From assembly GCA_030745755.1 (NCBI GenBank), contig JASLOA010000041.1, positions 6,515 to 70,514 on the forward strand: a stretch of DNA of 64,000 nucleotides, given 5' to 3'. The DNA is from Kiritimatiellia bacterium (GTDB lineage Bacteria > Verrucomicrobiota > Kiritimatiellia > UBA8416 > JABMPJ01). This document shows, in pieces, positions 11,244 through 43,147 of this stretch (the stretch's first letter is position 1; each line of letters opens with the position of its first letter). The position numbers and the translations under genes are program-made. The notes under the pieces are model-generated. The model was not told the DNA's origin. It saw only the letters and a program-made list of their open reading frames with translations, and ran no database searches.

Positions 11244-11332
11244 AGGAGATCCCTCGGCTTCGCTCGGGATGACGGTCTCGGAATCACCAGTCTTCTGAGA
11301 ACTTGTCATGCTGAGCTTGTCGAAGCATCTCA
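11244..11332. repeat. MITE/REP-like palindromic element, family 1, copy 1 (arms in reverse-then-forward order)
   Basis: GGAGATCCCTCGGCTTCGCTCGGGATGAC ... TGTCATGCTGAGCTTGTCGAAGCATCTC. Confidence 0.8.
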
Positions 11333-11398
11333 TCTGACCCATTGCGATGGCCTGGGCAACCACCCAAGAAGGGCGAACACTCGTCCTTCGTCCGTTCC

Positions 11399-12703
11399 TT
11401 ACGGCCGGCCTACGGAATGGTAGGTGAAGCCTTGTGCATCCATGGCCTGTGCGTCGAACACGTTGCGGCCGTCCACCACGATGGGACAGCGCATGCTGTC
11501 TTTGAGGGCCGCAAGGTCCAGTTCCCGGATCTCCGGCCAGTCGGTCAGGATCAGGAGCACGTCGGCATCCTTCGCGCACTCGAGCAGATCATCATTGTAA
11601 TCCAGGCCGGGAAACTCCTCGTTGAACTTCTCGCGGGCAATGGGGTCCCACAGGCAGAGTGAGGCCTTCTGTTCCTGGAGCTGCGGAACGAAGTAGAGCG
11701 AGGGAGATTCACGGATGTCATCCGTGCCCGGTTTGAAGGCAAGGCCAAAGATGGCGACGCGCTTGTTCTGCAGCACCCACATCTCCTGCTTGAGTTTGCG
11801 CATGACATGCTCGCGCTGCTGCTTGTTGATGCTCTGTACCTCTTTGAGCAGATCAAGTCTATAGCCGACCTCGTCGCCCATGCGTACAAAGGCATCCACA
11901 TCTTTCGGGAAGCAGGAGCCGCCGTAACCCACGCCGGCCTTCAGGAAATGCTCGCCGATACGGGCATCAAGGCCCATGCCGTGCGCCACCTGCGTGATGT
12001 CCGCGCCGGTCAGTTCACAGATCCGGCTCACGGCGTTGATGAAGGAAATCTTCATGGCCAGGAATGAATTCGAGGCGTGCTTGGTCAGTTCGGCGCTGGC
12101 GATGTCCATCTGCAGGTACTCGCAGCCACTCTTCTCGACGATCGGCGCATAGATCTCGCGCAAGAGATCGCCGGCACGGTCGCTTTCCACACCCACGACC
12201 ACGCGATCGGGCTTGAATGCATCCTTGATGGCTGTGCCTTCGCGCAGGAACTCCGGGTTGGAAGCGATATCGAACGGGATGTCAGCCTTGAGGTACTTGT
12301 TCATAGTCCGCGTGAGCTGCTCGTTCGTATTGACGATCACCGTGCTCTTTTCCACCAGCAGACGGTAGGAGGTCATATGCTCGGCCACTTCACGCCCGAC
12401 GCTTTCAACGTAGGACATGTTGGCCTCGCCCTGGTAGCCCGGGGGGGTGCCGACGGCGATGAAGATGACCTCGGCGAAGGCCGTGCCTTCGGCCACAGAC
12501 GTGGAGAACTTCAGACGGCCGGCTTTGACGTTGGCCAGAACCATCTCTTCGAGGCCCTCTTCATAGATCGGCATGATGCCGCTCTCAAGCTTATCGATCT
12601 TGGAGGTGTCGTTATCAACACAGAGCACGTCATGCCCAATCTCGGCAAACGTAGTTCCTGTGACCAGGCCTACATAGCCGGTTCCAACAATGGTAATCTT
12701 CAT
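11399..12703 (-). CDS. ugd: UDP-glucose 6-dehydrogenase (nucleotide-sugar dehydrogenase)
   Basis: MKITIVGTGYVGLVTG...GGSCFPKD is the hallmark UDP-glucose/GDP-mannose dehydrogenase motif set. Confidence 0.9.
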   Translation of the reverse strand: MKITIVGTGYVGLVTGTTFAEIGHDVLCVDNDTSKIDKLESGIMPIYEEGLEEMVLANVKAGRLKFSTSVAEGTAFAEVIFIAVGTPPGYQGEANMSYVESVGREVAEHMTSYRLLVEKSTVIVNTNEQLTRTMNKYLKADIPFDIASNPEFLREGTAIKDAFKPDRVVVGVESDRAGDLLREIYAPIVEKSGCEYLQMDIASAELTKHASNSFLAMKISFINAVSRICELTGADITQVAHGMGLDARIGEHFLKAGVGYGGSCFPKDVDAFVRMGDEVGYRLDLLKEVQSINKQQREHVMRKLKQEMWVLQNKRVAIFGLAFKPGTDDIRESPSLYFVPQLQEQKASLCLWDPIAREKFNEEFPGLDYNDDLLECAKDADVLLILTDWPEIRELDLAALKDSMRCPIVVDGRNVFDAQAMDAQGFTYHSVGRP

Positions 12704-12791
12704 GGTGTAGTCTTCCTTCTTCGTGTTTCTGTGGACGGCCCGCTCGGAGATCGGGCCCTACCAGCTCTTCGGCGAGGCTGCGTCCTCGGTC

Positions 12792-12823
12792 GGGGTAGGG
12801 CGAGCCGTCCCGGCGAGCCGCGC
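12792..12823. repeat. family-2 GC-rich repeat (GGGGTAGGGCGAGCCGTCCCGGCGAGCCGCGCG), single arm
   Basis: Matches the copies at 14082-14111, 26939-26967 (with an inverted partner at 26882-26908) and the 20642-20670 / 20750-20779 pair. Confidence 0.7.
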
Positions 12824-12837
12824 GTTGGTCAACAAGG

Positions 12838-13806
12838 TTAGCCGTCACCCTCAAGACTATGCTGCCCCAGCACAAGGATGGCGCGCAGCAGGTCAATCAG
12901 CAGGTGGTAGAACGCAAACAGGATGTAGCTGAAGAACGGCAGCAGCACACAGGCCGTGATGAGCCGCAGGGCTGAGATCGCCGCCGTGGGGTCGCCGCTG
13001 CGCATCATGGTGAGCGTGGCCGCGATCAGGGCGATGGAGCCCAGGATGGCGCCTATACCGAACGCCATGGGCACCAATCGCACGATGGTCTTGATCGCGA
13101 GGGACATGATGCCAATCGCTTCTTCACCGGCCCCCACTTCGCCGCCGACATCGATGTTGACCATGGAGGGATGCAGCGCGATATAGGCCACCGCATCGCA
13201 CAGAGCCCATAGCGCCAGGCCCACAAAGAAATAGCCCCAGCCCCCCACGAACCAGTACGTGAAGAACAGGGAGATACCGAGCACCTCGACCAGTAGGGCC
13301 AGGCAGTCCATAAAGGCATCTGAACCAAGTCGGCTGGGAGAGTTGGATAGGAGCCGGTCGCCCGCATCCATAAAGCGACTCGCTGTATACTGGAGAATCA
13401 CGAGCAGCAGGGCCACGCCGATCCCGGCAGGGAACAGGCGCCAGTTGTTCATCTTGAACGCAGCGGTCAATCCCAGGATAACACAGGCCGCCTCTGCCAC
13501 GATGAGGCCCAGGTGCCCGTATTTCACAAGCGAGGTGGCAATGGTGTCGAACATCTCGACCGGGAACACGCGACGCGCCCAGGCAATGACGTCGTCGAGC
13601 ATGTCGACTGCCGCCAGCGGATTGCAGCGATCAGACGCAAAAAACGCGCCCGCCCGGTTGCAGGCTCCGAGGGCCTTCTTCGCAGGGGACTCGCCCTGTT
13701 CGGCTTCAGACTCGGGCGCAGGCTCTTCAGCGGACGCGGCCTCCGGTTCCTGGACCACCGTCGCGTCTTCTTCTATAGGCTCAACAGGTTTGTTCTGCTC
13801 TTCCAT
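12838..13806 (-). CDS. hypothetical integral membrane protein with an acidic, disordered N-terminus
   Basis: 322 aa with GC3-rich codon usage. About 60 aa of E/A/P-rich N-terminus are followed by about 6 TM helices. I recognise no family. Confidence 0.5.
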   Translation of the reverse strand: MEEQNKPVEPIEEDATVVQEPEAASAEEPAPESEAEQGESPAKKALGACNRAGAFFASDRCNPLAAVDMLDDVIAWARRVFPVEMFDTIATSLVKYGHLGLIVAEAACVILGLTAAFKMNNWRLFPAGIGVALLLVILQYTASRFMDAGDRLLSNSPSRLGSDAFMDCLALLVEVLGISLFFTYWFVGGWGYFFVGLALWALCDAVAYIALHPSMVNIDVGGEVGAGEEAIGIMSLAIKTIVRLVPMAFGIGAILGSIALIAATLTMMRSGDPTAAISALRLITACVLLPFFSYILFAFYHLLIDLLRAILVLGQHSLEGDG

Positions 13807-13925
13807 GACGACCTCCTTCTTACATCACACGCCGGAAAGAGTATGCATCAGGGGCTCTGGATGCAAGATGAGAGTGGGGCCGCTCAGCAATTCTCATTTT
13901 GGAAGCATTCGTGCTTTGTCTGATC

Positions 13926-14025
13926 TGTCATTCCGAGCGAAGTCGAGAGCCTGTGCTGAGCTTGCCGAAGTAAATCTCCAGTGTTTTCGATGATCAGGAG
14001 ATCCCTCGGCAAGCTCGGGATGACA
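13926..14025. repeat. family-1 palindromic element, copy 2
   Basis: CTGTCATTCCGAGCGAAGTCGAGAGCC...GGAGATCCCTCGGCAAGCTCGGGATGACA. It shares the GTTTTCGATG spacer with copy 1. Confidence 0.8.
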
Positions 14026-14081
14026 GAACGGCTTGAAGTAGTGCCATAATGAGAATCGCCTGGGGGCCTCTGCGATGTAAA

Positions 14082-14111
14082 GGGGGTAGGGCGAGCGTCC
14101 CCGCGAGCCGC
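14082..14111. repeat. family-2 GC-rich repeat (GGGGGTAGGGCGAGCGTCCCCGCGAGCCGC), single arm
   Basis: Lies next to MITE copy 2 in the same intergenic region. Confidence 0.7.
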
Positions 14112-14116
14112 AAACA

Positions 14117-14527
14117 CTACGGATCCACATTCTCAAGCGCGAGCGACGTGAAATCGATACGGCGATAGTAGCAGTTGCGGGGCTTGCCATTCTGGTTGCT
14201 CGTGTGACAGATCCCGCCCGCGCGGGGACGTACCGTATAGAGGAGTGAGTTCTGCTCACAGTTCACGAATGCCTCAACCAGGTCATAGGTCTGCCCCGAG
14301 GTCGCGCCTTTCTCCCATAACTCATTGCGTGACGTACTCCACAGAACCAGGCTGCGCTTGGTCATCGACTCCTTGAAAGCCAATTCATTGGTGTAGGCCA
14401 CCAGGATCAGCTCCTTCGTATCAGCATGCTGCACCGCAACAGGAATAACATCCGGGCAATTCCCCGCCACCTTCGCCAATTTCGCAAAATCCAGCGTCAA
14501 CGCTGTGCCTTCTTCAAGTTCTTTCAT
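14117..14527 (-). CDS. hisI: phosphoribosyl-AMP cyclohydrolase
   Basis: LILVAYTNELAFKESMTKRSLVLWSTSRNELWEKGATSGQ...GGICHTS matches the HisI core. Start placed at MKELEEG (14527), with a GAAGAGG RBS about 13 nt upstream. Confidence 0.85.
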   Translation of the reverse strand: MKELEEGTALTLDFAKLAKVAGNCPDVIPVAVQHADTKELILVAYTNELAFKESMTKRSLVLWSTSRNELWEKGATSGQTYDLVEAFVNCEQNSLLYTVRPRAGGICHTSNQNGKPRNCYYRRIDFTSLALENVDP

Positions 14528-14705
14528 ATTCTTACACATCCTCTTCTTCGGTACGGCCCCCACCGGCTTGTCCGGTGGGTGAGCAAGACTATCCAGACAA
14601 GAAAGGGTTGTCAAAGCGACTTTGCGGCTGGTGAGTGCGAGGAGAGGACTTGCGGTCAAGACTCGCGCAAATCAGCCGCGTTCTAACCGCTACGATGCAG
14701 TCTTT

Positions 14706-14808
14706 CTTGACAGGATCAACAGGATTAACTGGATGGACAGCGGCCTGCGGCCGCCGGGGCCCTCCGCGCGAAGCGCGGTTATCCTGTTCATCCCGTTGAT
14801 CCTGTCAA
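14706..14808. repeat. long inverted repeat (CTTGACAGGATCAACAGGATTAAC ... GTTATCCTGTTCATCCCGTTGATCCTGTCAA) flanking a GC-rich core hairpin, between lexA stop and hisI start
   Basis: Arms of about 24 and 31 nt; the right arm carries a 9-nt insertion (TCATCCCGT). The central CCGCGCGAAGCGCGG is a hairpin. Confidence 0.6.
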
Positions 14809-14839
14809 AAAAGGGAGTCTTCCCTCTGTCCAAGCTGCC

Positions 14840-15421
14840 TCAATACTTCCTGATCACACTACGCACTACGCCCGCGATTTCGAGCGAATTCTGCGGACGG
14901 ATAGGCTCATACTTGCTGTTGGCCGGATCCAAGCGCACGCCCTGGCGGTCCTTGACGAAGTACTTGATCGTCCACTCGCCATCCACCTGTGCAATCACAA
15001 TGCTGTTCTTGCGCGGTGGAGCGTCCCGTTCAACCAGCACCATATCGCCCGGATGAATGCCAGCATCAATCATCGAATCACCCGTCACACGCAACATAAA
15101 GGTCGATTCCGGCTTCTCAATCAGAAACTCATCCAGTGTGATCGTGTCGAGCAGCTCCTCCTCCGCAGGGGAGGGGAAGCCGGCCTGGACCGTGCCGAGG
15201 AGGCGAATGTTCCCGATGAGCTTGTCCGTGAACGCAATCTTGCGGCCGGTCTTCGTGATATAGCCCAACTCGTCCAGCTTCAGCAGTAGGCTGTGCACGG
15301 CCTGCTTGGAGCGATATCCAAAGAGGGTAAGCATCTCGCTATAGCCCGGCATCCGCTTCTCGCGGAGCACGAACTCCCGTAGGCGACCGACCTTGGTGGC
15401 TATATCTGTCTTGCGTGGCAT
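14840..15421 (-). CDS. lexA: LexA repressor (S24 peptidase)
   Basis: An N-terminal wHTH is followed by the C-terminal S24 motifs ...VTGDSMIDAGIHPGDMVLV...IVIAQVDGEWTIK. Confidence 0.9.
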   Translation of the reverse strand: MPRKTDIATKVGRLREFVLREKRMPGYSEMLTLFGYRSKQAVHSLLLKLDELGYITKTGRKIAFTDKLIGNIRLLGTVQAGFPSPAEEELLDTITLDEFLIEKPESTFMLRVTGDSMIDAGIHPGDMVLVERDAPPRKNSIVIAQVDGEWTIKYFVKDRQGVRLDPANSKYEPIRPQNSLEIAGVVRSVIRKY

Positions 15422-15439
15422 AACGAACGCATGGTGACA

Positions 15440-15453
15440 GAACTATAGTTTTG
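15440..15453. promoter_or_regulatory. candidate LexA operator (Cheo-box-like palindrome AGAACTATAGTTTT) 19 nt upstream of the lexA start codon
   Basis: It matches the GAAC-N4-GTT core of the CGAACRNRYGTTCG consensus in 10 of 14 positions and sits in the lexA promoter region. A second half-site-like CGAACGCATGG lies at 15426-15436. Confidence 0.45.
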
Positions 15454-15529
15454 TGGCAAGGCAGAAGTCCCCTGCTGGTTTCCTGTGCCCAACGCGGCTC
15501 AGGCGCCCGCTCTCCCGCTGAGGCCTTCG

Positions 15530-15919
15530 TCACACGCAGGGGATCTGGGGTAGGTGCTTGAAGTGGTCGTCGCGCGTAAAGAGCATAAGACGGTGTTGGA
15601 TTACGAGGGCCGCGATCCATAGATCGTTCGCGGGAACGGGGGTGCCTTGGCCCCTGAGCTGCGCATAGAGGCGACCATAGTGGAAGGTCGTTTGCTCGTC
15701 GGGCATAAGCATCACGACGCGTGGTCGATCAAGGAAGATACTCAGCACGCGCTCGTTTTGGCTGGCCAGTGTTCCACAGGCAAAGCCCGCCCGCAGTTCA
15801 GCCAAAACCGGCAGAGGCATGAATATCCGGTCGGCGCTCTGAAGGACTTCTCGTGCCTTCGCATCGTCCTCGCAAAAGTCCCTGTAACGGTTTGTGTCAA
15901 TCGCGATCCTCATCGCCAC
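15530..15919 (-). CDS. vapC: PIN-domain toxin VapC (type II toxin-antitoxin)
   Basis: 129 aa opening MAMRIAIDTNRY..., with conserved PIN acidic residues (D8, E42, D104-like). Confidence 0.8.
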   Translation of the reverse strand: MAMRIAIDTNRYRDFCEDDAKAREVLQSADRIFMPLPVLAELRAGFACGTLASQNERVLSIFLDRPRVVMLMPDEQTTFHYGRLYAQLRGQGTPVPANDLWIAALVIQHRLMLFTRDDHFKHLPQIPCV

Positions 15920-16167
15920 ATACTCTCGTCGACTTGACGCATCTCATCAAGGGCTTGTTCGGTCGCCTCATCGCGCACCCACGTGCCTGCCAAATCGTCC
16001 AGATCGTGGTGCAGGGCGGGAAGATCTCCAACGCCGACGCCCTTCTTCAGGGCTTCCAGGGATGCTTCGTTCAGGGTTTGCCCGTACTCGGTCGCCGTTT
16101 CACGCAACTTTGCGTTCAGGCGGTCTGGTACGTTCCTGATGGTATACTGAATCTTCGGCTTCTTCAT
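15910..16167 (-). CDS. vapB: VapB-type antitoxin (ribbon-helix-helix / plasmid-stability-protein-like)
   Basis: 85 aa protein directly upstream of vapC with a 10-nt overlap. The N-terminus KIQYTIRNVPDRLNAKLRETA is typical of RHH/FitA-like antitoxins. Confidence 0.7.
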   Translation of the reverse strand: MKKPKIQYTIRNVPDRLNAKLRETATEYGQTLNEASLEALKKGVGVGDLPALHHDLDDLAGTWVRDEATEQALDEMRQVDESMWR

Positions 16168-16266: not shown

Positions 16267-16452
16267 TCATGCCTTAACTCCAAACTCATCGAGCGCTTCA
16301 AACATCGCCATGATATTGGCGGGGGGAACTTCTGGCAGGATGTTGTGTACTGTGTTGAACACGAAGCCGCCACCGGGAGCGAGGATCTCAAGGCGATCAC
16401 GCACGTGAGCCTTTACCTCTGCCGTAGTGGCGCGGTTCAAGACTGAGCGCAA
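16267..16452 (-). pseudogene. 3'-terminal remnant of a uroporphyrinogen-decarboxylase (URO-D/MtaA)-family gene
   Basis: The 61-aa ORF ...VRDRLEILAPGGGFVFNTVHNILPEVPPANIMAMFEALDEF matches the extreme C-terminus of URO-D-family proteins. No upstream body exists, and a MITE copy lies immediately upstream at 16494-16569. Confidence 0.6.
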
Positions 16453-16493: not shown

Positions 16494-16569
16494 TGTCATC
16501 CCGAGCTTGTCGAGGGATCTCCAGCGGCTTGCAAGGGTCTGAGATTCCTCGACTTCTCTCGGAATGACA
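16494..16569. repeat. family-1 palindromic element, copy 3
   Basis: TGTCATCCCGAGCTTGTCGAGGGATCTCC-N18-GAGATTCCTCGACTTCTCTCGGAATGACA. Confidence 0.85.
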
Positions 16570-16601
16570 GAGCTCATATCGGTTGACCTGCCGCGCAGGC
16601 C

Positions 16602-19600
16602 TTACATCTCGAAGATGGATTCGATGTCTTCCCAGGACATACTCTTCATGGCCTGTTCGTCGGATTCGACGGTGGCGTCGATGATGGCGCGCTTCTTCTT
16701 CTGGAGGGCCAGCACCTTCTCTTCGACAGTGTCCTCCGTGATGAGCTTGACGCTGTAGACGGTACGCTTCTGTCCGATGCGGTGGGCGCGGTCGGTGGCC
16801 TGGTTCTCGACGGCGGGATTCCACCACGGATCGAAGTGGATCACCATGTCGGCACCGGTCAGGTTGAGGCCGGTGCCGCCGGCTTTGAGGCTGATCAGGA
16901 AGATCGGGATGGCGCGGTTGGTGTTGAACTTCTGTACTTCCTGCATGCGCTCCTTGGTGGAGCCATCAAGGTAGCAGTGTTCGATACCGCGCTCTTTGAG
17001 TTCATCCTGAATGATGTGCAGCATAGAGACAAACTGGCTGAAGATGAGGACACGGTGACCGCCGTCAAGCGCTTCGTCGAGCAACTCGAAACATTGATCG
17101 AGCTTGGCCGAGGGCTGCGCCGGCTTGACCCCGTCGAGCTTGAGCAGGTCGAGATGGCAGCAGGTCTGGCGCAGACGCATGAGCAGCGTCAGAATCTCCA
17201 TGCGGCTCTGGTTGAAGCCCTTCTTCTTGACCATGGACGCGATCTTGCGGCGCGACGATTCGAGTAGCTCTTTGTAGACGGCGGACTGGTCCGGCGAAAG
17301 CTGACAGGTCGAGACGCGCTCGATCTTGGGCGGCAGATCCTTGGCCACGTCGGTCTTGAGCCGGCGCATCAGGAAGGGCTGAAGCTTGCGGCGTAACCGC
17401 TTCTGCGCCGCTTCGGCCTCAAGACCGCCTCGTGCGATGGGCTGCTCATAGAGATGCTTGAAGACGTCATGGGCGCCGAGGTAGCCGGGGATCAGGAAGT
17501 CCATGATCGACCAGAGATCGGATACACTGTTCTCCATGGGCGTACCGGTCAGGACAATACGCTGCCGCGCGCGCAGTCGCTTGGCGGCGATAGCGTTCTG
17601 CGTGGCGCGGTTTTTGATGTGTTGCGCCTCATCGAGGATCAGCGCGGCGAACTCGTGATCGCCATAGTATTCCAGGTCGCGCCGTAGGAGTGCGTAGGAG
17701 GTGATCGCCAGGTCGGCATCTCCCAGTTCGTCCCACAGGTCATGCCGGTCTTTTCCGCTGATCTCCAAAACGGTGAGGTGCGGCGTGAACTTGCGCGCCT
17801 CGGCGGCCCAGTTGCCGACCAGGCTGGTGGGGCATACCACGAGGGCGGGCCTGCCGTCAGACGTCGGGTCAGTGCGGTTGAGCTGTAGCCATGTCAATGC
17901 CTGAAGCGTCTTGCCAAGTCCCATCTCGTCGGCCAGCAGGGCGCCGAACCCATTCTCCTCCATGAAGCGCATCCAGCTCACGCCGGTCTTCTGGTAGGGA
18001 CGCAGGATGCCGTCCAGCGGCGGCTCCAGCGGTACGGGCTCCATCTTGGAGTTGCGGTTGGCTTTGGCGGCCTGCTTGCGCCATTCAGGCTCCGACTCCA
18101 CATCAATCCCGTCGAGCGCATCGAGAGATGACTGAACAAAGGGGGCATAGACGTCACTGACGCGGAAGCAGCCGGGGCGGTCGGTGCCCATACCGCCACA
18201 GTCTTCGAAGACACCGGTCATGGAGTCGACCGCATCGCCGTCGATCAGGAGGTAGCGTCCGTTCTGCTCCACAAAGGACTCGCCCTTGCGCAGGGCACGT
18301 TGGATGTCCAGGGCGGAGATGCTGGCGCCCTGCATATCCTCAAAATCAAAGCTGACATCGAACCAGCCCGCATCGTCGTTGGGCTGAATGTGGGCCACGG
18401 GCGCAATGAAGTCCATGTCATCGAGGAACGACGAGACGCGACCCTCAATATCAATCTTCCATCCGAGCCGACGCAAGGCCGGCATGTGCCCGCCCAGGAA
18501 GTTCATGACCTCGCGCTTGCTCACGATGTGTGTGAGATCATCGCCGACCATCCCCGCAAACCCGGTCGGTCGAAGCTGCTGCAGTGCCATCTGTTCGCGA
18601 GGCCGGTTGCGCACCTCGTAGCGCATCAGGTCGTCGGGGTCGGGCAAGGCGAACCCCGTGCGGGCATCGGGCCTGTCGGCTATGAATTCAAGGCCGTCGT
18701 AGACGGCATACAGCACGGCGGACAGTGATGCGGGTGATCCACTGACCTGCAGGCGGAACGACGGCGTGCCGGGATCCGCGGTGAAGAGGTCCAGCGAGAG
18801 GTCGGACTCCACGACCGTGTGCTCCTGGATCGAAGGAAGCTCGGCCCGGAGAAAGCGCATGACATCCGAACGCGGTACAATGATCGGCTCGAGGTAGATG
18901 GCGTGGTAGGGGCCGGGCAGCACGGAGTCAAGCGGCCAGAAATGACCGCCGCCATGTACCCACCCCTCGCGGCCGTGAACGGCATAGACCGGGAACTCGC
19001 CGGGCTTCAGAAAGGGCAGTTCGGTGTGCGCCAACAGAATCAGCTCGCCGTTCTCGCGGTCGAGATCCATGCGCAGGTGCATGGTCATGGGCGTCTCACC
19101 CACCTGGATGCCCGTGCCGTCGGCGCAATGGATCGGGCGGCCGGCATGCAGGCGGATCACGTTCACGAAATCGGCCAGCTTGAGCTCCATCTCGTGACGG
19201 ACCGGTCCCTCTGCAATGTCCTCCATGACAAAGAGCAGGTTCTCGTCGCGTTTGCTGAAGGTGAAAGGCGTCTCCGTGTTGACCTGGTCGACCGGCACAA
19301 CCTTGCGCCGGATGACCAGGTCGCAGGTGACAGCAACGGAGCCACGCGGAAGGGTCCTGGCCCAGTCGGAGGCAAGCGTGACACGGAAGCCGGCGGGGCT
19401 GGCCCCGGGTGTGTCCGGGCTCACACGCTGGATATAGTCGCCTTCATCGATACTGGCGAGTCGCTCGGCCTGGCGCATCTCAGCCAGGTACTTCGCCTCA
19501 CGGAGCGGGTCGGTGGCGCGCTTGATCAGCATCAGCGCCACGGCAATGACATGCGTACAGATCAGTCCGCGTTCCTTGTTGGTGTAGCAGGGGCACTCGT

Positions 19601-19796
19601 TCTGGACCAGTCCGCCCTTGAGAATCTTGAGAGCCGTTACCAGTTCGCGATTACTGGCAAGGACGCTGCCCCGGATAGTGGGCGCATCAAACTCGGCCTT
19701 GAGCACATTGCCGCTTTCGAGACTGCGTTCGGCATCGCGCACCACGTCTGCACCGGCCCAATCAATGAGCATCTTGCGTGTGAAAGGCAATTTCAT
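16602..19796 (-). CDS. SNF2-family DEAD/DEAH helicase with an N-terminal SWIM zinc finger (YwqA/RapA-like)
   Basis: 1064 aa. It carries a SWIM CxC...CxH motif (NECPCYTNKERGLICTHV), LRPYQKTGVSWM...DEMGLGKT (motifs I/Ia), DEAQHIKN (motif II), LTGTP (III) and the helicase-C QATDRAHRIGQ (VI). Confidence 0.85.
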   Translation of the reverse strand: MKLPFTRKMLIDWAGADVVRDAERSLESGNVLKAEFDAPTIRGSVLASNRELVTALKILKGGLVQNECPCYTNKERGLICTHVIAVALMLIKRATDPLREAKYLAEMRQAERLASIDEGDYIQRVSPDTPGASPAGFRVTLASDWARTLPRGSVAVTCDLVIRRKVVPVDQVNTETPFTFSKRDENLLFVMEDIAEGPVRHEMELKLADFVNVIRLHAGRPIHCADGTGIQVGETPMTMHLRMDLDRENGELILLAHTELPFLKPGEFPVYAVHGREGWVHGGGHFWPLDSVLPGPYHAIYLEPIIVPRSDVMRFLRAELPSIQEHTVVESDLSLDLFTADPGTPSFRLQVSGSPASLSAVLYAVYDGLEFIADRPDARTGFALPDPDDLMRYEVRNRPREQMALQQLRPTGFAGMVGDDLTHIVSKREVMNFLGGHMPALRRLGWKIDIEGRVSSFLDDMDFIAPVAHIQPNDDAGWFDVSFDFEDMQGASISALDIQRALRKGESFVEQNGRYLLIDGDAVDSMTGVFEDCGGMGTDRPGCFRVSDVYAPFVQSSLDALDGIDVESEPEWRKQAAKANRNSKMEPVPLEPPLDGILRPYQKTGVSWMRFMEENGFGALLADEMGLGKTLQALTWLQLNRTDPTSDGRPALVVCPTSLVGNWAAEARKFTPHLTVLEISGKDRHDLWDELGDADLAITSYALLRRDLEYYGDHEFAALILDEAQHIKNRATQNAIAAKRLRARQRIVLTGTPMENSVSDLWSIMDFLIPGYLGAHDVFKHLYEQPIARGGLEAEAAQKRLRRKLQPFLMRRLKTDVAKDLPPKIERVSTCQLSPDQSAVYKELLESSRRKIASMVKKKGFNQSRMEILTLLMRLRQTCCHLDLLKLDGVKPAQPSAKLDQCFELLDEALDGGHRVLIFSQFVSMLHIIQDELKERGIEHCYLDGSTKERMQEVQKFNTNRAIPIFLISLKAGGTGLNLTGADMVIHFDPWWNPAVENQATDRAHRIGQKRTVYSVKLITEDTVEEKVLALQKKKRAIIDATVESDEQAMKSMSWEDIESIFEM

Positions 19797-19914
19797 CTAT
19801 CCGGCGTTTATAGCACAGAGATCCAACGAAAGAAAAGCCCAGAGCGGGGAGGGGAGAAGATTAACCGCGAAAGAGCGCAAGGAACGCAAAGGAAGCATGT
19901 GCGTATGTTGCAGG

Positions 19915-19990
19915 GGAGATGCCTCGACTTCGCTCGGCATGACACGGAACGCTAAGGAATTGTCATCCCGAGCGAAGCCGAGGGATCTCC
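19915..19990. repeat. family-1 palindromic element, copy 4 (arms in reverse-then-forward order)
   Basis: GGAGATGCCTCGACTTCGCTCGGCATGACA-N16-TGTCATCCCGAGCGAAGCCGAGGGATCTCC. Confidence 0.85.
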
Positions 19991-23565: not shown

Positions 23566-23619
23566 CGTAACGGCTCCCTAGCGTCCTGATCTACAAATGA
23601 GGTCGCGTATGTCATGCTG

Positions 23620-23705
23620 TGTCATCCCGAGCTTGCCGAGGGATCTCCACGGTGCTCGATTGGGCTGAGATTCCTCGACTCCGCTTCGCTCCGCTCGGAA
23701 TGACA
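23620..23705. repeat. family-1 palindromic element, copy 5
   Basis: TGTCATCCCGAGCTTGCCGAGGGATCTCC-N18-GAGATTCCTCGACTCCGCTTCGCTCCGCTCGGAATGACA. The right arm carries a 10-nt internal duplication. Confidence 0.85.
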
Positions 23706-23738
23706 GCTTGCTGTTTGGCGTATCTCCCAATTGCACTT

Positions 23739-24437
23739 CTATTTCCTTCCCCGTACCAGGGAGAAAAAGCGGTCTTCGTAGTCTTCGAAAAGATTATAAC
23801 GCTGCAGGGTGTGCGCCAGTGCCTCGATCAGAGAGGGGTCTCTTGCCGCGGTGGAAAACGCAGCCTCGATCTCATTGCGCACCCCGCGCGGAACGCCGCG
23901 ATCATCTTCAAACATCCGGCGCTTCTGCAGCTCCCGGATATTGGGTGCCGCAGACTGGCGGATCACTTCCCAGAACAGCTTCACCAGGCAGACATCCCAC
24001 GGATCGTCAACGCCCTGTACAACGGCCGTGTGGGTGTGGTCACCCGCTTCCACCTCGCCCTTGATTCGCTCCACGACATTCTTGATGTTGTCTGTGATGA
24101 TGTGCTCGCTGAACGCTTCCTGCTTGAGCGTGTAGCCGTACTGCAGGATGCGGATATCCTGTTCGTGCTGCTTGAGCCAGTTGACATAGTTCTCGGCCTG
24201 CTCGCCGAAGCCCTCCAGAATCGTCTCCGAATAGGCCTCGGGCGTGATGATGTGCGGCTGGTGCGCCTGGATCCGTCCCTCGCGCACGCGGATCTGGTTG
24301 ACCGAGTCCATCATCTCGCTGATGAGGCGGTAATTCAATACGGTCGCCCCGAACGTCTCGAGGTGCCGGCCCGGCATCAGGATAATCTCGGTATTGTTTA
24401 CCGCGTACCAGAAATCAAATGATGTGTTCTCGTTCAC
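23739..24437 (-). CDS. hypothetical protein (no recognisable family)
   Basis: 232 aa ORF with good GC3 bias and proper spacing between dtd and the leuC-proximal MITE. Confidence 0.45.
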   Translation of the reverse strand: MNENTSFDFWYAVNNTEIILMPGRHLETFGATVLNYRLISEMMDSVNQIRVREGRIQAHQPHIITPEAYSETILEGFGEQAENYVNWLKQHEQDIRILQYGYTLKQEAFSEHIITDNIKNVVERIKGEVEAGDHTHTAVVQGVDDPWDVCLVKLFWEVIRQSAAPNIRELQKRRMFEDDRGVPRGVRNEIEAAFSTAARDPSLIEALAHTLQRYNLFEDYEDRFFSLVRGRK

Positions 24438-29255: not shown

Positions 29256-29330
29256 GTCATCCCGAGCGAAGTCGAGGGATCTCCTACTTGTCGAGCAGCA
29301 CGGAGATCCCTCGGCAAGCTCGGGATGACA
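29256..29330. repeat. family-1 palindromic element, copy 6 (near-perfect palindrome)
   Basis: TGTCATCCCGAGCGAAGTCGAGGGATCTCC-N17-GGAGATCCCTCGGCAAGCTCGGGATGACA. Confidence 0.9.
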
Positions 29331-32984: not shown

Positions 32985-33191
32985 ATGGTGACATTGCATC
33001 CAGAGTATCTCGTTGACGAAGAACAGCACCGGAAGGCTGTGCTGTTGCCTGTTGCGGAGTGGGAACGCATTGTCGAGGAACTGGAACACCTTGACGATAT
33101 TCGCGCATATGATGGCGCGAAGGCCAGATCTCAAGACGCCATCCCTTTTGAACGCGCCGTGCGCGAGATTCAAGAGGGATACGGCGAATGA
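32985..33191 (+). CDS. type II antitoxin (Phd/YefM or RelB-like)
   Basis: 68 aa, acidic, directly upstream of a RelE/ParE toxin with an ATGA overlap. Confidence 0.7.
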   Translation: MVTLHPEYLVDEEQHRKAVLLPVAEWERIVEELEHLDDIRAYDGAKARSQDAIPFERAVREIQEGYGE

Positions 33192-33442
33192 CGTATGCCG
33201 TTGAGATTCTTCGTGCCGCTCAGAAGCAACTCGCTAAGATTGACCGACAGGCACAGGCTCGTGTCATCGATGCGGTCAGGGCACTTGCTGACAATCCTCG
33301 CCCTTCAGGATGTAAGAAGCTCGCCGGACGGCCCGCTTGGCGTATCCGCGTTGGTTCTTACCGGGTGATCTACGAGATTCACGATGGCCGACTTACAGTG
33401 CTGGTTGTCGCTGTCGGTGACCGGAAAGACGTGTATCGCTAG
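33188..33442 (+). CDS. relE: RelE/ParE-family toxin (type II toxin-antitoxin)
   Basis: 84 aa with the ...AWRIRVGSYRVIYEIHDGRLTVLVVAVGDRKDVYR C-terminus typical of RelE/StbE. Confidence 0.8.
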   Translation: MTYAVEILRAAQKQLAKIDRQAQARVIDAVRALADNPRPSGCKKLAGRPAWRIRVGSYRVIYEIHDGRLTVLVVAVGDRKDVYR

Positions 33443-33465
33443 AGCCGCGCGTCCAGCGCGGCTCT
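33441..33465. terminator. perfect hairpin AGAGCCGCGC-GTCCAG-GCGCGGCTCT between convergent relE (+) and a glycosyltransferase-like gene (-)
   Basis: 10-bp GC-rich stem seen directly. It spans both stop codons and is a candidate bidirectional terminator without a clear U-tract. Confidence 0.45.
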
Positions 33466-39639: not shown

Positions 39640-39679
39640 TGTTTTTTTGCGCAATCGAACTTTCAAGATGCGTAAGTTC

Positions 39680-39753
39680 TTGTCATTCCGAGCAACGCGA
39701 GGAATCTCATACCCATGTTGGGGAAGAGATCCCTCGGCTTCGCTCGGGATGAC
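39680..39753. repeat. family-1 palindromic element, copy 7
   Basis: TGTCATTCCGAGCAACGCGAGGAATCTC-N17-GAGATCCCTCGGCTTCGCTCGGGATGACA. Confidence 0.85.
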
Positions 39754-39806
39754 AGACGAAGTATTCACCGTGGTTCCTAGACAATACACTGGCGGATAGT
39801 CTAACT

Positions 39807-40817
39807 ATGAATACCGAACTGAATGTTGATGAACTGCTCAACCGGTTGGCATCGGTACGCGTCGGGGTTGTAGGCGATTTCTGCCTGGATGGCTATTGGG
39901 AGCTGGACGGCAGTCTCTCTGAGCGCTCAGTGGAAACGGGTTTGCCGACCCGGTCCGTTCGCAGTCAACGCTACACCCTGGGGGCCGCGGGCAACGTAGC
40001 CGCCAATCTGCGTGCCATGGGCGTGGTAAGCGTGTCGGTCTATGGTGTGACAGGGAGCGACCCCTTCGGCCGCCAGGAGCGCGAGTTGATGCGGGAGCAG
40101 GGAGTGGGTGTCCGCGGACTCGTCGAGCAGGACGAGAACTGGTTGACCCACGTCTTCATCAAACCGTTGGAAGACGGTGTTGAGGCCAGTCGCATTGATT
40201 TCGGCAACGCCAATCGGCTGACGGACGGCGTTGCCCGACGGGTCCTCGAAGAACTGGCGGGTAGCTGTGCCGACCTTGATGTGGTCATCATCAACCAGCA
40301 GGTCACAGGCGGCATCCATGAATCGGAGCTGTTCCAAGACGAGCTGCAGACTCTTATTGCGGCCAATCCCGACAAGCTGTTCCTTCTGGACAGTCGTGAC
40401 ATGTGCCGACGCTATGAGGGCACCATCCGCAAGATCAATGCGTGCGAAGCCATGCGGTTGATGGGAGCCGAGGTGGATCCGCTGGATCCGATCAGCGATG
40501 ACGCTGCCCGCGCCGCCGGTGTAAGGCTCGCGGAGGAGTGGGAGAAGCCGCTTTTTGTGACGCAGGGCAAACGCGGCTGCCTGGTGATCGATGGTGACCG
40601 CGCTGATGTCGTGCCCGCCGTGCCGGACAGGAGCCCCACTGATCCTGTGGGCGCAGGCGACAGTATGGTCGCAGGCATCGCTGCCGCCCTGGCCGCGGGC
40701 CATACGCCCTATGAAGCGGCGGCCTTCGGCAGCCTGGTGGCCGGCGTCACGGTGCAGAAGCTCCACCAGACTGGGACGGCCACGCCCGGCGAGATACGCG
40801 CGATCGCACAGGCGTGA
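39807..40817 (+). CDS. hldA: D-glycero-beta-D-manno-heptose-7-phosphate kinase (HldA / RfaE domain I, PfkB family)
   Basis: VGVVGDFCLDGYWE at the N-terminus and DPVGAGDSMVAGIAAALAAG (PfkB GAGD motif) are present. The gene follows two heptosyltransferases. Confidence 0.8.
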   Translation: MNTELNVDELLNRLASVRVGVVGDFCLDGYWELDGSLSERSVETGLPTRSVRSQRYTLGAAGNVAANLRAMGVVSVSVYGVTGSDPFGRQERELMREQGVGVRGLVEQDENWLTHVFIKPLEDGVEASRIDFGNANRLTDGVARRVLEELAGSCADLDVVIINQQVTGGIHESELFQDELQTLIAANPDKLFLLDSRDMCRRYEGTIRKINACEAMRLMGAEVDPLDPISDDAARAAGVRLAEEWEKPLFVTQGKRGCLVIDGDRADVVPAVPDRSPTDPVGAGDSMVAGIAAALAAGHTPYEAAAFGSLVAGVTVQKLHQTGTATPGEIRAIAQA

Positions 40818-40905
40818 CCCCTCTCCTGTTCCCGATCCCTGGCTGAAAAGGCAGTTGTGTTTCTCTGAAGACGGGCCATAATAATAGGAACCAGAGGTGA
40901 CGTGC

Positions 40906-41397
40906 ATGGGGATGTTGCGCATGAGTTCCAAGCGTGGTTTTACGGTGATCGAGATCATGATTGTGGTCACGATCATTGGCCTGCTGGCCACCCTGGCCGT
41001 TCCGCACTTTCGCAAGATCCGGCGTCGTGCCCGGAACGCGGTCTTCATAAACAATCTGCGCATCCTGAGCGACAGCGTGTTTGAGCAATACGCGATCGAG
41101 AATGGCGGGTACCCTGCCGATGCGCCGCCTGGTGTGATACCCGCGGGCATTCAGCCCTACATGGCCCGTCGGGTTCACTGGGAGGAAGGTACACCCATCG
41201 GAGGACAGTGGAACTGGGATCGGGGTGCGACACGTACCGACAAGATCAACGGAGTCTACGCTTCCATCGAGGCAGTGGGTGTGAGCAGAACCGCCGACCA
41301 GATGCGTGAGTTGGACGGTGAATTTGATGACGGAAATCTCCTGACGGGTATGTTTCGCCAGACGCCGACAGGATACATGCAGATAATGGAACACTAG
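40906..41397 (+). CDS. prepilin-type N-terminal cleavage/methylation domain protein (type II secretion / type IV pilus pseudopilin-like)
   Basis: MGMLRMSSKRG|FTVIEIMIVVTIIGLLATLAVP is a class III signal peptide. The ATG at 40906 has AGAGGTGA 5 nt upstream. Confidence 0.8.
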   Translation: MGMLRMSSKRGFTVIEIMIVVTIIGLLATLAVPHFRKIRRRARNAVFINNLRILSDSVFEQYAIENGGYPADAPPGVIPAGIQPYMARRVHWEEGTPIGGQWNWDRGATRTDKINGVYASIEAVGVSRTADQMRELDGEFDDGNLLTGMFRQTPTGYMQIMEH

Positions 41398-41409
41398 AGC
41401 GAGGAATCC

Positions 41410-41904
41410 ATGAGTCAGCCTTCGCAGCCGCCGGTCAAACGCAGCAACATCTTCAGCAATCCACGCGTACAGTGGCGGATCGTTCTGACGTTTTCCGCCA
41501 TCGCCCTCGTCTTCGCAGCAACGAGCTGGTACGTCAGTTTGGGGGCCATCGATGCCGTGCATAGCGAGGTGGATCGGCTCGACCTGACCTCTATCCAGGA
41601 ACGCGACCTGCATATTATTGCGCGCGAACAGCGGACCGTGCTCAATATCCAGTTGATGATTCAGACGTTTGCCGCCTTCGTGGTTCTCACGATGGCTGCC
41701 GTCGTGCTGTCGCATCACATCGGCGGGCCGCTCCACCAGCTCAGCGCCTACCTGGCTGAGGTCGTGGAAGGAGAAGTGCAGCCCCGGCGCATCGGCTTCC
41801 GTCACCACGACTTCTTCGAGGATTTGCCCGGTCTCTTCAATGCCTTCCAGGCGAAGTTCGGCATCCTCAAGGAAGAGCCCCGTGCTCCCGCCGGGGAGGA
41901 CTAA
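41410..41904 (+). CDS. hypothetical two-TM membrane protein
   Basis: 164 aa with two hydrophobic helices and a C-terminal amphipathic region. It lies 12 nt downstream of the pseudopilin gene and has no recognisable family. Confidence 0.45.
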   Translation: MSQPSQPPVKRSNIFSNPRVQWRIVLTFSAIALVFAATSWYVSLGAIDAVHSEVDRLDLTSIQERDLHIIAREQRTVLNIQLMIQTFAAFVVLTMAAVVLSHHIGGPLHQLSAYLAEVVEGEVQPRRIGFRHHDFFEDLPGLFNAFQAKFGILKEEPRAPAGED

Positions 41905-41938
41905 TGTCAACTTCTACTACTCCCAGGTAGAAATCGCT

Positions 41939-42010
41939 TGTCATTCCGAGCGAAGCGAGGAATCTCAGCTGAAATCAGAACGCTGAGATCCTTCGCTTCG
42001 CTCAGGATGA
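41939..42010. repeat. family-1 palindromic element, copy 8
   Basis: TGTCATTCCGAGCGAAGCGAGGAATCTCAG-N14-CTGAGATCCTTCGCTTCGCTCAGGATGAC. Confidence 0.85.
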
Positions 42011-42079
42011 CCGCATGCATGCATTCATACCGGTGAGTATTGGCGAGTGGTATAGGGGCGCTAGGCCCGCTTGCCAATA

Positions 42080-42976
42080 TCAACGAACGGTTGGTGATGC
42101 CGCAGACAGGGAGTGGGGCAGGGCCGGCGTAGCCGTGTCCTGGGTGCAGACAAATGCGGCGACGCGGTTGGCGTGGTCGTTGATTTCGGGAAGCGGCTTC
42201 TGATTCAGCAGCCCGATGCAGAGGGTGGCTGTGAAGGAGTCTCCTGCACCAACCGTGTTGGTGGCCTCACAAAGAATGCCGGCATGGTCGTCGGTTTCAT
42301 TCTCGGTCACAAGCAGACTGCCTGCAGATCCTCGCGTGTAGGCGATGAGCTGGAGGTCGAACATCTGGCGTAGTGCTGCGATCTGTTCGGGTGCCGTCCC
42401 GTCGATGCCGAACATGTCGGCGAGCACCGGCAACTCCTCATCACTCAGTTTCAGCACGCTAGCATGCGCCAGCGACGCCTCGATGATCTCCTTAGAGAAG
42501 AAATCCTGCCGCAGATTGACGTCAAAGATCTTCAGTGCCTCGTCGCGCATTGCTCCGAGGAACGCGTGAATAGTGCTGCGCGATACGCCATTGCGCTGCG
42601 CCAGCGACCCGAAACAGACCGCGTCGGCTTTGGTCGCCAACGTAATGAGGTCGTTTGTCAGTGGGACGTAATCCCACGCGACGCCTTCACAGATCTCGTA
42701 ACTCGGTTTGCCGCTGTTGAGCGTGACTTGAACCGTTCCGGTCGGATGCTCCTTGTCGATCATCACGAACTCATCCGGCAGGCGTTTTGCCAGCAGCACC
42801 TCGCGAATCTCGACACCCAGTGCATCCGGACCCACGGCACTCACCGGGTACCCGGTCGCGCCGAGCTGATGGCCGTGATAGCTGAAATTTACCGGCGCAC
42901 CCCCAAGACGCTTTCCTTCCGGAAACACATCCCACAGCAGCTCACCAATCCCGGCAACAGTAAAGGGCTCGTACAT
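42080..42976 (-). CDS. PfkB-family carbohydrate kinase (fructokinase/ribokinase-like)
   Basis: GIGELLWDVFPEGKRLGGAPVNF at the N-terminus and NTVGAGDSFTATLCIGLL (GAGD) at the C-terminus. Start chosen at MYEPF (42976); the longer ORF-track N-terminus is a translated MITE. Confidence 0.8.
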   Translation of the reverse strand: MYEPFTVAGIGELLWDVFPEGKRLGGAPVNFSYHGHQLGATGYPVSAVGPDALGVEIREVLLAKRLPDEFVMIDKEHPTGTVQVTLNSGKPSYEICEGVAWDYVPLTNDLITLATKADAVCFGSLAQRNGVSRSTIHAFLGAMRDEALKIFDVNLRQDFFSKEIIEASLAHASVLKLSDEELPVLADMFGIDGTAPEQIAALRQMFDLQLIAYTRGSAGSLLVTENETDDHAGILCEATNTVGAGDSFTATLCIGLLNQKPLPEINDHANRVAAFVCTQDTATPALPHSLSAASPTVR

Positions 42977-43026
42977 ATGAATTACTCTTTGCGGGCTGTT
43001 GCCCAAATCAAAAAGACGCCTGCGGC

Positions 43027-43147
43027 GAGATGTCTCGGCAAGCTCGACATGACAGTTCCTTAGAAAACTCGGTAAGGCAAGACGGGTCATCCCGCCTGCC
43101 CGCCATAGCCCAGCGGGCGACGGCGGGAGCAACGTCGAGGGATCTCC
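43027..43147. repeat. family-1 palindromic element, copy 9, with a ~40-nt GC-rich insertion splitting the forward arm
   Basis: GAGATGTCTCGGCAAGCTCGACATGACA ... GTCATCCCG[CCTGCCCGCCATAGCCCAGCGGGCGACGGCGGGAGCAAC]GTCGAGGGATCTCC. Confidence 0.75.

What the first reader, a model, noticed from the sequence alone, without database searches (positions are those of the whole stretch)
11244..43147. A family of about 80-nt palindromic MITE/REP-like elements (core GTCATCCCGAGCGAAGTCGAGGGATCTCC) in at least 9 intergenic copies
Nine copies lie at 11244, 13926, 16494, 19915, 23620, 29256, 39680, 41939 and 43027, each in an intergenic gap. Each consists of the 29-nt core and its reverse complement separated by 14-18 nt, and can form a roughly 30-bp hairpin. 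Both arm orders occur (forward then reverse, and reverse then forward). Copies differ by compensatory substitutions on both arms (CCC/GGG versus TCC/GGA variants), which suggests selection on the structure. Copies 1 and 2 share the loop motif GTTTTCGATG. When translated they yield spurious peptides such as VIPSEAEGS, HSERSRGIS and IPRQARDD, which produce false ORFs in the six-frame track. Nine copies in 64 kb extrapolates to hundreds per genome. Such elements may act as terminators, mRNA stabilisers or recombination hotspots, and they mark the boundaries of the accessory cassettes here (vapBC/SNF2, the LPS cluster, the sugar-kinase block).
Basis: seen in the sequence. Interest (0 to 1): 0.6.

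Follow-up and report, generated by a model that had tools for sequence, protein, structure and literature searches.

The report
Ssn-type hairpin repeats, in pairs
The nine intergenic repeat pairs are real, and they are a new example of a known system: REP-like hairpin repeats that a 2025 study showed to be the single-stranded-DNA recognition sites of small GIY-YIG (Ssn) nucleases.

Summary
Observation confirmed. The window holds 18 copies of a 27-28-nt unit, (T/C)GTCAT-NNN-GAGC-loop-CGA-N'N'N'-ATCTC, arranged as 9 inverted pairs, all intergenic.

The interpretation needs correcting. The compensatory changes lie inside each unit, in its own 5-bp stem: 17 of 18 units pair perfectly, using six triplet types. 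They do not lie between the two arms, and 8 of 9 pairs combine units with different stems.

The same unit occurs in many phyla. In 122 distinct copies the three free stem positions are 98% paired.

The only gene family that recurs next to the unit is a ~95-aa single-domain GIY-YIG nuclease. Units are 10-fold enriched within 200 nt of such genes. A homologue in Azospirillum is flanked by canonical NTS-like repeats.

This matches the Ssn/SRM system (Chenal 2025) and the CGTC/TGTC-tagged REPs (Di Nocera 2013). The window's subtype is not matched by the published SRM search string.

No ssn gene lies in the ~79 kb of the contig I could read, so the cognate nuclease in this genome is inferred. I found no support for a terminator role, for a RAYT partner, or for classical MITE features.

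Verdict: new member of a known kind, modest interest.

The parts
11246..11273 (-). Unit L1a GTCAT-CCC-GAGCGAAGCCGA-GGG-ATCTC (pair 1, R>F)
11305..11331 (+). Unit L1b GTCAT-GCT-GAGCTTGTCGA-AGC-ATCTC (pair 1)
13927..13978 (+). Unit L2a, composite: the 5' part of a TCC-type unit fused to the 3' part of a GCT-type unit (pair 2, F>R)
13998..14024 (-). Unit L2b GTCAT-CCC-GAGCTTGCCGA-GGG-ATCTC (pair 2)
16495..16521 (+). Unit L3a, CCC/GGG stem, TTGT loop (pair 3, F>R)
16541..16568 (-). Unit L3b, TCC/GGA stem (pair 3)
19916..19943 (-). Unit L4a, GCC/GGC stem (pair 4, R>F, between the divergent SNF2 and def starts)
19962..19989 (+). Unit L4b, CCC/GGG stem (pair 4)
23621..23647 (+). Unit L5a, CCC/GGG stem (pair 5, F>R)
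23667..23704 (-). Unit L5b, TCC/GGA stem, loop expanded to GAGCGGAGCGAAGCGGAGTCGA (pair 5)
29256..29283 (+).
29303..29329 (-). Unit L6b, CCC/GGG stem, TTGC loop (pair 6; the only pair whose two units share a stem)
39682..39708 (+). Unit L7a, TCC/GGA stem, AACG loop (pair 7, F>R)
39726..39753 (-). Unit L7b, CCC/GGG stem (pair 7)
41940..41966 (+). Unit L8a, TCC/GGA stem, symmetric interior GAGCGAAGCGA (pair 8, F>R)
41985..42011 (-). Unit L8b, CCT/AGG stem (pair 8)
43027..43053 (-). Unit L9a, GTC/GAC stem (pair 9, R>F)
43086..43146 (+). Unit L9b, CCC/GGG stem, with a unique 38-nt GC-rich hairpin inserted in the loop (pair 9)

Best explanation
Each ~28-nt unit is an Ssn-related hairpin motif: an NTS-like repeat of the CGTC/TGTC-tagged REP super-family.

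How it is built. On single-stranded DNA the unit folds into a short hairpin. The stem is A-T, T-A plus three freely varying Watson-Crick pairs. Inside it are invariant GA/(C)GA mismatches and a GC-GAA-GC or TTG-type cap. An invariant GTC sits 5' of the stem and an invariant C sits 3' of it.

How it most likely works. By analogy with N. meningitidis SsnA, a small single-domain GIY-YIG nuclease encoded elsewhere in the genome binds this hairpin on one strand only and nicks the ssDNA a few nucleotides upstream of GTC. Because the units sit in inverted pairs, each strand carries one cleavable site at every locus. In F>R pairs the two predicted cuts fall at the outer borders of the pair.

What is shown and what is inferred. 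The unit hairpin, its pan-bacterial conservation and its association with the nuclease gene family are shown here. Binding and cleavage, and the presence of the nuclease in this genome, are inferred. The biological outcome is open: restriction of incoming ssDNA, modulation of recombination, or selfish spread of a unit-ssn-unit cassette and its gene-less derivatives.
For: (1) Unit anatomy in all 18 copies: GTCAT, GAG(C), CGA and ATCTC are invariant. 17 of 18 have a perfect complementary triplet, and six triplet types occur.

(2) Unbiased covariation. In 122 distinct copies the free stem positions are 98% paired, with 151 double-sided changes. None of 500 shuffles reaches this, and slid controls pair only 26-47%.

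(3) The two units of a pair usually have different stems: 8 of 9 here, and 24 of 39 elsewhere.

(4) Clustering of all ORFs within 400 nt of units in ~120 loci gave one recurrent small family, a 93-99-aa protein with only a GIY-YIG domain.

(5) Reverse test. In 80 metagenome loci encoding relatives of that protein, units occur at 1.71 per kb within 200 nt of the gene and 0.17 per kb elsewhere. 28 loci have a unit next to the gene and 12 have one on both sides. Several of these units are identical to window units.

(6) Bridge to the published family. A homologue in Azospirillum lipoferum (E 6e-13) lies between sufB and sufC. It is flanked on both sides by pairs of CGTCATCCCCGCGAAGGCGGGGATCCAG, which matches the published SRM search string.

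(7) Literature. Ssn nucleases (cd10448, ~94 aa) bind such hairpins as ssDNA only and cut upstream. The three nucleotides 5' of the palindrome are crucial for cleavage, and the C just 3' of it is crucial for binding. 71% of ssnA homologues have such motifs nearby (PMC11893778). CGTC/TGTC-tagged REPs have stems that start with AT, occur as dimers and have no transposase partner (PMC3733652).
Against: No GIY-YIG gene is present in the window or in the ~15 kb of extra contig I read. The cognate nuclease of this genome is therefore not demonstrated.

The published degenerate SRM string matches none of the 18 units. They fail at the non-Watson-Crick interior.

With nearest-neighbour DNA parameters the single unit folds weakly (-2.5 to -2.7 kcal/mol, z about 0). 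A pair folds strongly as one long hairpin (-20 to -31 kcal/mol, z -4 to -9), which would mask the unit hairpins.

No biochemical data exist for this subtype. Only 35% of the homologue loci carry a strict window-type unit nearby.
Confidence: 0.72

Rival explanations
1. REP/REPIN elements mobilised by a RAYT, a REP-associated Y1 (IS200-like) tyrosine transposase, as in Pseudomonas and E. coli.
For: The architecture is the same: short imperfect palindromes in inverted pairs, intergenic and in many copies (PMC3116915 abstract). An IS200-like Y1 gene lies 1.4 kb beyond the window's right end.
Against: That Y1 gene is flanked by a different repeat (GGCAAGCCCGTGGGGGGG...), not by the units, and that repeat is absent from the window. 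No Y1 transposase recurs next to units in ~120 loci. The units lack the GTAG head. Di Nocera et al. found no transposase linked to CGTC/TGTC-tagged repeats.
Confidence: 0.05
2. The elements act mainly at the RNA level. The ~30-bp hairpin formed by a transcribed pair would serve as a terminator, a 3'-end stabiliser or an RNase III site.
For: 8 of 9 pairs lie downstream of at least one gene's 3' end. Pairs fold into very stable long hairpins. An SRM pair also follows the orthologue of the 232-aa gene (window 23739-24437) in two Udaeobacter species.
Against: No T/U tract follows any pair, and the terminator scan picks up none. One pair sits between divergent starts. Conservation and covariation act on the unit stem, and the two units of a pair usually differ, which weakens the long hairpin. 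There is no Rfam family; the only matches are far below the gathering thresholds. SsnA does not bind RNA. An RNA role could still be a side effect.
Confidence: 0.1
3. Classical MITEs: deletion derivatives of a DDE-type insertion sequence with terminal inverted repeats and target-site duplications.
For: Size is 72-74 nt with terminal inverted symmetry (TGTCAT...ATGACA).
Against: There are no target-site duplications at any of the six F>R pairs. No DDE transposase recurs nearby. The reversed R>F arrangement also occurs. Single units are common in other genomes.
Confidence: 0.03
4. Orphan relics. The units are Ssn-type repeats by descent, but this genome has lost the nuclease, so they now persist without a dedicated function.
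For: No ssn gene lies in the ~79 kb examined. 19% of genomes with more than 200 SRMs lack a homologue (PMC11893778). The spacers within pairs are fully diverged.
Against: 17 of 18 units keep a perfect stem and all invariant positions. That argues for ongoing constraint or recent copying.
Confidence: 0.08

Closest known systems
NTS / Ssn-related motifs (SRM) with SsnA GIY-YIG ssDNA nucleases (Chenal et al. 2025, Nat Commun 16:2388, PMC11893778)
   Same: The layout is the same: (C/T)GTC head, a palindrome starting with AT, and a C right after the palindrome. Units are directional, intergenic, clustered and present in many copies. Identical units flank single-domain ~95-aa GIY-YIG genes, often on both sides. 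The protein is homologous to one flanked by canonical SRMs in Azospirillum.
   Different: The interior is not a Watson-Crick stem; it is GAGC-loop-(Y)CGA with G/A mismatches. As a result the published search string HGTCWYN(0-2)YYVSBRH... matches 0 of 18 units. The tail is CTC(C), not CYRG. Units here are almost always in inverted pairs with a 17-19-nt spacer. No ssn gene has been seen yet in this genome. No biochemistry exists for this subtype.
CGTC-tagged REPs, including Neisseria dRS3 and Rickettsia RPE-4/6 (Di Nocera et al. 2013, BMC Genomics 14:522, PMC3733652)
   Same: The CGTC tag is often TGTC. Stems begin with complementary AT. There is a short unpaired tail. Units are mostly organised as dimers, are found in several phyla, and are not linked to tyrosine transposases.
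   Different: The described families have 8-9-bp perfect stems, 4-5-nt loops and a CCA tail. Here there are only 5 Watson-Crick pairs plus a conserved non-canonical interior, and the tail is CTC. The consensus figures of that paper could not be read, so identity with one of its four families is untested.
REP / REPIN / BIME with RAYT (Bertels & Rainey 2011, PMC3116915; Nunvar 2010; Ton-Hoang 2012)
   Same: The logic is the same: short hairpin repeats in inverted doublets, intergenic, with the presumed cognate nuclease gene itself flanked by the repeats.
   Different: The head motif is different (no GTAG). The partner enzyme is different: GIY-YIG rather than an HUH/Y1 transposase. This exact unit is spread over many phyla, whereas REPIN-RAYT systems are described as vertically inherited within lineages (abstracts).

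Membership tests
Ssn-related motif (SRM/NTS-like) repeats | Conserved (H)GTC immediately 5' of the palindrome (needed for cleavage) | tested here: met
   GTC is present in 18/18 units. The preceding base is T in 15, C in 1 and G in 2, so H is met in 16/18.
Ssn-related motif (SRM/NTS-like) repeats | Hairpin-forming palindrome starting with AT, with a conserved C right after it (needed for binding) | tested here: met
   AT...AT followed by C in 18/18 units. The stem triplets are complementary in 17/18. Covariation was confirmed in 122 distinct copies from other genomes.
Ssn-related motif (SRM/NTS-like) repeats | Match to the published degenerate search sequence HGTCWYN(0-2)YYVSBRHN(0-5)WNVSBRGN(0-2)RNCYNB | tested here: not met
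   0 hits in the window against 0.6 expected by chance. Positive-control NTS sequences match. The units fail at the A/G mismatches of the interior.
Ssn-related motif (SRM/NTS-like) repeats | Spatial association of the motif with genes for single-domain cd10448-type GIY-YIG proteins | tested here: met
   This was tested in other genomes. Enrichment within 200 nt of the gene is 10-fold, 28/80 loci have a unit next to the gene, and 12/80 have one on both sides. Unit-gene-unit cassettes occur in L014, L134, L137, L151 and L194. The protein has only PF01541, is 93-99 aa, and has Tyr6/Tyr17 equivalents. The CDD cd10448 assignment itself could not be run.
Ssn-related motif (SRM/NTS-like) repeats | A cognate ssn gene in the same genome | not testable with these tools
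   None in the window, in the 5.3 kb to the left or in the 10 kb to the right.
Ssn-related motif (SRM/NTS-like) repeats | Strand-specific binding and cleavage as ssDNA, with no activity on dsDNA or RNA | not testable with these tools
   This needs biochemistry.
CGTC-tagged REPs (Di Nocera 2013) | CGTC/TGTC tag, stem starting with AT, dimer organisation, no transposase association | tested here: met
CGTC-tagged REPs (Di Nocera 2013) | 8-9-bp complementary stem, 4-5-nt loop, CCA-like tail | tested here: not met
   There are 5 Watson-Crick pairs, then GA/(C)GA, then a 2-bp cap. The tail is CTC(C).
REP/REPIN-RAYT | RAYT (Y1 transposase) gene flanked by the same repeats; GTAG head | tested here: not met
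   The only Y1-like gene nearby has different flanking repeats. No Y1 family recurs next to units. The head is GTC, not GTAG.
Intrinsic (Rho-independent) terminator | GC-rich hairpin followed by a T/U tract | tested here: not met
   None of the pairs is called by the terminator scan, and the sequences following them have no T run.
MITE (TIR transposon derivative) | Target-site duplication and a related autonomous IS | tested here: not met
   The flanks of the six F>R pairs share no direct repeat. No DDE transposase is associated.

The most novel reading that the evidence does not exclude
The window-type unit defines a distinct subclass of Ssn-related hairpins spanning many phyla. It has invariant GTCAT..GAGC-loop-CGA..ATCTC, a free 3-bp stem and a non-Watson-Crick interior, and the published search string misses it. 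Its fixed-spacer inverted pairs would be the gene-less derivatives of unit-ssn-unit cassettes. On this reading a GIY-YIG ssDNA nuclease drives a REPIN/RAYT-like mobile system that has crossed phylum boundaries. The cassette inserted between sufB and sufC in Azospirillum fits this picture.
Probability: 0.2. Interest if true: 0.7.

Novelty: new member of a known kind. Interest (0 to 1): 0.3.

Why it matters
This places an unannotated MAG repeat family, and look-alike units in many phyla, in the recently discovered Ssn/SRM system. It also shows that the published SRM search string under-detects at least one widespread subtype.

The subtype offers a natural specificity series: invariant contacts combined with freely covarying stem pairs. 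That could guide work on Ssn target recognition and on ssDNA-cutting tools.

The unit-gene-unit cassettes and the gene-less pairs give concrete material for testing whether Ssn elements are mobile.

For annotation, the units explain spurious small ORFs and assembly breaks.

Tried and rejected
- Rfam. At gathering thresholds only a tRNA was found. A permissive E-value scan of one pair and of the L014 cassette gave only sub-threshold generic hairpin (miRNA-like) hits.
- RAYT partner: rejected.
- MITE/TSD: rejected.
- Intrinsic terminators: rejected.
- Literature search by the unit's sequence found only unrelated primers. Searches for GIY-YIG plus palindromic repeats, and for YhbQ/COG2827, returned nothing relevant to bacterial repeats.
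- My first label 'YhbQ/UPF0213-like' for the GIY-YIG protein was dropped. The PDB hit to UPF0213 protein BH0048 is only E 0.0024.
- Strain polymorphism or empty sites: the three other assemblies of this locus match the window (100%, 100% and 99.996% identity, the last with one mismatch), so they gave no information.
- Supplementary files of both key papers held no usable sequences.
- A first look-up of the 1189-aa ORF failed because the called start differs.
- The weak profile hit at 33202-33225 is coding sequence, not a unit.
- The loop insertion in unit L9b is unique in the window.

Full report
**Observation**

With up to 3 mismatches it hits 5 times against 0.00 expected, and a looser 16-mer hits 11 times against 1.05 expected. 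A profile built from the clear copies finds 18 units that form 9 inverted pairs, exactly at the nine reported positions. No further copy exists in the window. A weak hit at 33202-33225 lies inside a RelE/ParE-like ORF.

Written in one orientation, all 18 units read (T/C)GTCAT-NNN-GAG(C)-loop-CGA-N'N'N'-ATCTC. Six pairs have the GTCAT heads outside (F>R) and three have them inside (R>F).

The F>R pairs are 72-74 nt long. The exceptions are one with an expanded loop (84 nt) and one with a composite first unit (98 nt). The spacer between ATCTC and GAGAT is 17-19 nt, and the spacer sequences are unrelated to one another. No target-site duplication is present.

All pairs are intergenic: six between co-directional genes, two between convergent genes and one between divergent genes (gene calls and Pfam).

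**Source**

The window is contig JASLLN010000006.1 of MAG GCA_030747025.1, with window position = record position - 6450. The best protein matches among the fetched genomes are to Chthoniobacterales/Udaeobacter at 40-55% identity, which weakly suggests a PVC/Verrucomicrobiota affiliation.

Reading 5.3 kb to the left adds two more pairs, and reading 10 kb to the right adds none. That makes 11 pairs in about 79 kb. They are clustered, with none after window position 43.2 kb.

A short-read contig of the same strain spans window 16494-19977, so its two ends fall within pairs 3 and 4. This is as expected for a multi-copy repeat.

**Which structure is conserved**

The unit is itself an imperfect palindrome. 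In 17 of 18 window units the two triplets are perfectly complementary. Six triplet types occur: CCC, TCC, GCT, GCC, CCT and GTC. In 8 of 9 pairs the two units carry different triplets.

An unbiased test left the triplets free. The hits include isolates such as Hymenobacter, Chryseobacterium, Algoriphagus and a cyanobacterium. They also include MAGs of Verrucomicrobiota, Bacteroidota, Clostridia, Dehalococcoidia, Gemmatimonadota, Latescibacterota and several proteobacterial groups.

In 122 distinct copies the three free stem positions are 98% paired, with 151 double-sided changes. None of 500 shuffles reaches this, and slid controls pair only 26-47%. Where a partner unit was found, 24 of 39 pairs combine different stems.

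Thermodynamics points the other way. Nearest-neighbour DNA parameters give the lone unit only -2.5 to -2.7 kcal/mol (z about 0), whereas a pair folds as one long hairpin of -20 to -31 kcal/mol. From my own knowledge, tandem sheared G·A pairs and the d(GCGAAGC) mini-hairpin are more stable than such models predict. That is not a tool result.

I conclude that selection acts on the unit hairpin and its invariant bases, which is the signature of a protein recognition site. The long hairpin is a by-product of the inverted arrangement.

**What goes with the unit**

I clustered all ORFs within 400 nt of units in about 120 loci. This gave one recurrent small family, a 93-99-aa protein whose only Pfam domain is GIY-YIG. 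No tyrosine transposase family appeared. In L014 the gene lies exactly between a forward and a reverse unit.

The reverse test used 80 metagenome loci encoding relatives of this protein. Window-type units occur at 1.71 per kb within 200 nt of the gene and 0.17 per kb elsewhere. 28 loci have a unit next to the gene and 12 have one on both sides. Several of these units are identical to window units.

**Literature**

Two papers cover this.

- Di Nocera et al. 2013 defined 'CGTC-tagged' REPs. The tag is often TGTC, stems begin with AT, the repeats occur in dimers in several phyla, they include Neisseria dRS3, and they are explicitly not linked to transposases.
- Chenal et al. 2025 showed that the NTS repeat (CGTCATTCCCGCGMAVGCGGGAATCYRG) and related 'SRM' hairpins are the targets of SsnA. 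SsnA is a 94-aa single-domain GIY-YIG protein (cd10448). It binds the hairpin only as ssDNA, on one strand, and cuts a few nucleotides upstream.
- In that study the three bases 5' of the palindrome were critical for cleavage, and the C just after it was critical for binding. 71% of homologues have SRMs nearby. In N. meningitidis the system lowers transformation by NTS-bearing DNA. Mobility of NTS-ssnA-NTS was only hypothesised.

The window units share the GTC head, the AT-initiated palindrome and the 3' C.

As a bridge, a homologue of the unit-associated protein in Azospirillum lipoferum (E 6e-13) sits between sufB and sufC. It is flanked on both sides by pairs of CGTCATCCCCGCGAAGGCGGGGATCCAG, which matches the published search string. 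S. meliloti and Spirosoma homologues carry further variants.

**Where it differs**

The published degenerate SRM string matches none of the 18 units (0 hits against 0.6 expected by chance, and positive controls match). The conserved interior has G/A mismatches where the string expects a stem. Among the 80 homologue loci, 28 carry window-type units near the gene and only 4 carry string-matching motifs. The window type is therefore a widespread subtype of the known class that current searches miss.

**What is not shown**

No GIY-YIG gene lies in the window or in the extra 15 kb, and the rest of the genome could not be read. Binding and cleavage are inferred by homology.

A Y1/IS200-like gene just outside the window is flanked by a different G-rich repeat, which argues against a RAYT partner.

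The pairs lack T-tails and are not called as terminators. Rfam has no matching family.

The flanking genes are largely housekeeping genes, so the 'accessory cassette boundary' idea is not supported.

**Verdict**

This is a real, well-defined repeat family. It is a new member of a known kind, of modest interest. The open and more interesting possibility is that the pairs and the unit-ssn-unit cassettes form a GIY-YIG-driven mobile system.

Noticed in passing
L209 13300-14760 (equivalent to window 65150-66610, just outside the window): A 314-aa IS200/Y1_Tnp-like gene is flanked on both sides by tandem copies of a different G-rich repeat (GGCAAGCCCGTGGGGGGGC...). This looks like a RAYT/TIRYT-type element with its own repeat family. 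That repeat is absent from the window.
   Followed up: partly
window 16495-16568, 23621-23704, 29256-29329, 39682-39753, 41940-42011, 13927-14024: In all six F>R pairs the spacer between the two tails is 17-19 nt, yet the six spacer sequences are unrelated. In other genomes spacers range from 3 to 68 nt. A constraint on length without a constraint on sequence is unexplained.
   Followed up: partly
window 43095-43123 (inside unit L9b): A unique 38-nt GC-rich hairpin (-17 kcal/mol as DNA) replaces the loop of one unit, while the unit's head, stem and tail stay intact. Other copies show loop expansions by CGGAG/CGAAG-like repeats (L5b, and many units in other genomes).
   Followed up: partly
window 13927-13978: Unit L2a is a chimera: the 5' part of a TCC-stem unit is joined to the 3' part of a GCT-stem unit resembling L1b. 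This suggests recombination or nested insertion between units.
   Followed up: no
window 23618-23739; L013 1811-2500; L053 5300-5925: A pair lies 30-60 nt downstream of the orthologous 232-aa hypothetical gene both in this MAG and in two Udaeobacter species, although the gene on the other side differs. Between the two Udaeobacter species the units are conserved while the spacer has fully diverged.
   Followed up: partly
L004 (= window 16494-19977): A Logan short-read contig of the same strain begins and ends within the repeat pairs that flank the SNF2 gene. The repeats break assemblies.
   Followed up: no
L211 1379-1887 (Azospirillum lipoferum 4B plasmid AZO_p3): A GIY-YIG (ssn-like) gene with SRM pairs on both sides is inserted between sufB and sufC of an otherwise contiguous suf operon. 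This is consistent with a mobile cassette.
   Followed up: partly
window 15530-16167 and 32986-33443: Two toxin-antitoxin pairs are present. One is VapB-like/PIN (vapBC), next to a LexA-like S24 peptidase gene (14840-15421). The other is a RelE/ParE-like pair. A 57-aa URO-D fragment (16267-16440) next to pair 3 looks like a gene remnant.
   Followed up: no
L210 16072-16143 and 18108-18214 (equivalent to window -617..-688 and -2672..-2732): Two further pairs lie just left of the window. One is between an RNA methyltransferase gene and dnaJ. The other is between the divergent grpE and a glycosyltransferase gene.
   Followed up: yes
L005-L009 (IMG/VR contigs): The same unit occurs in five stretches on four contigs classified as viral. 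One of these contigs carries several units.
   Followed up: no
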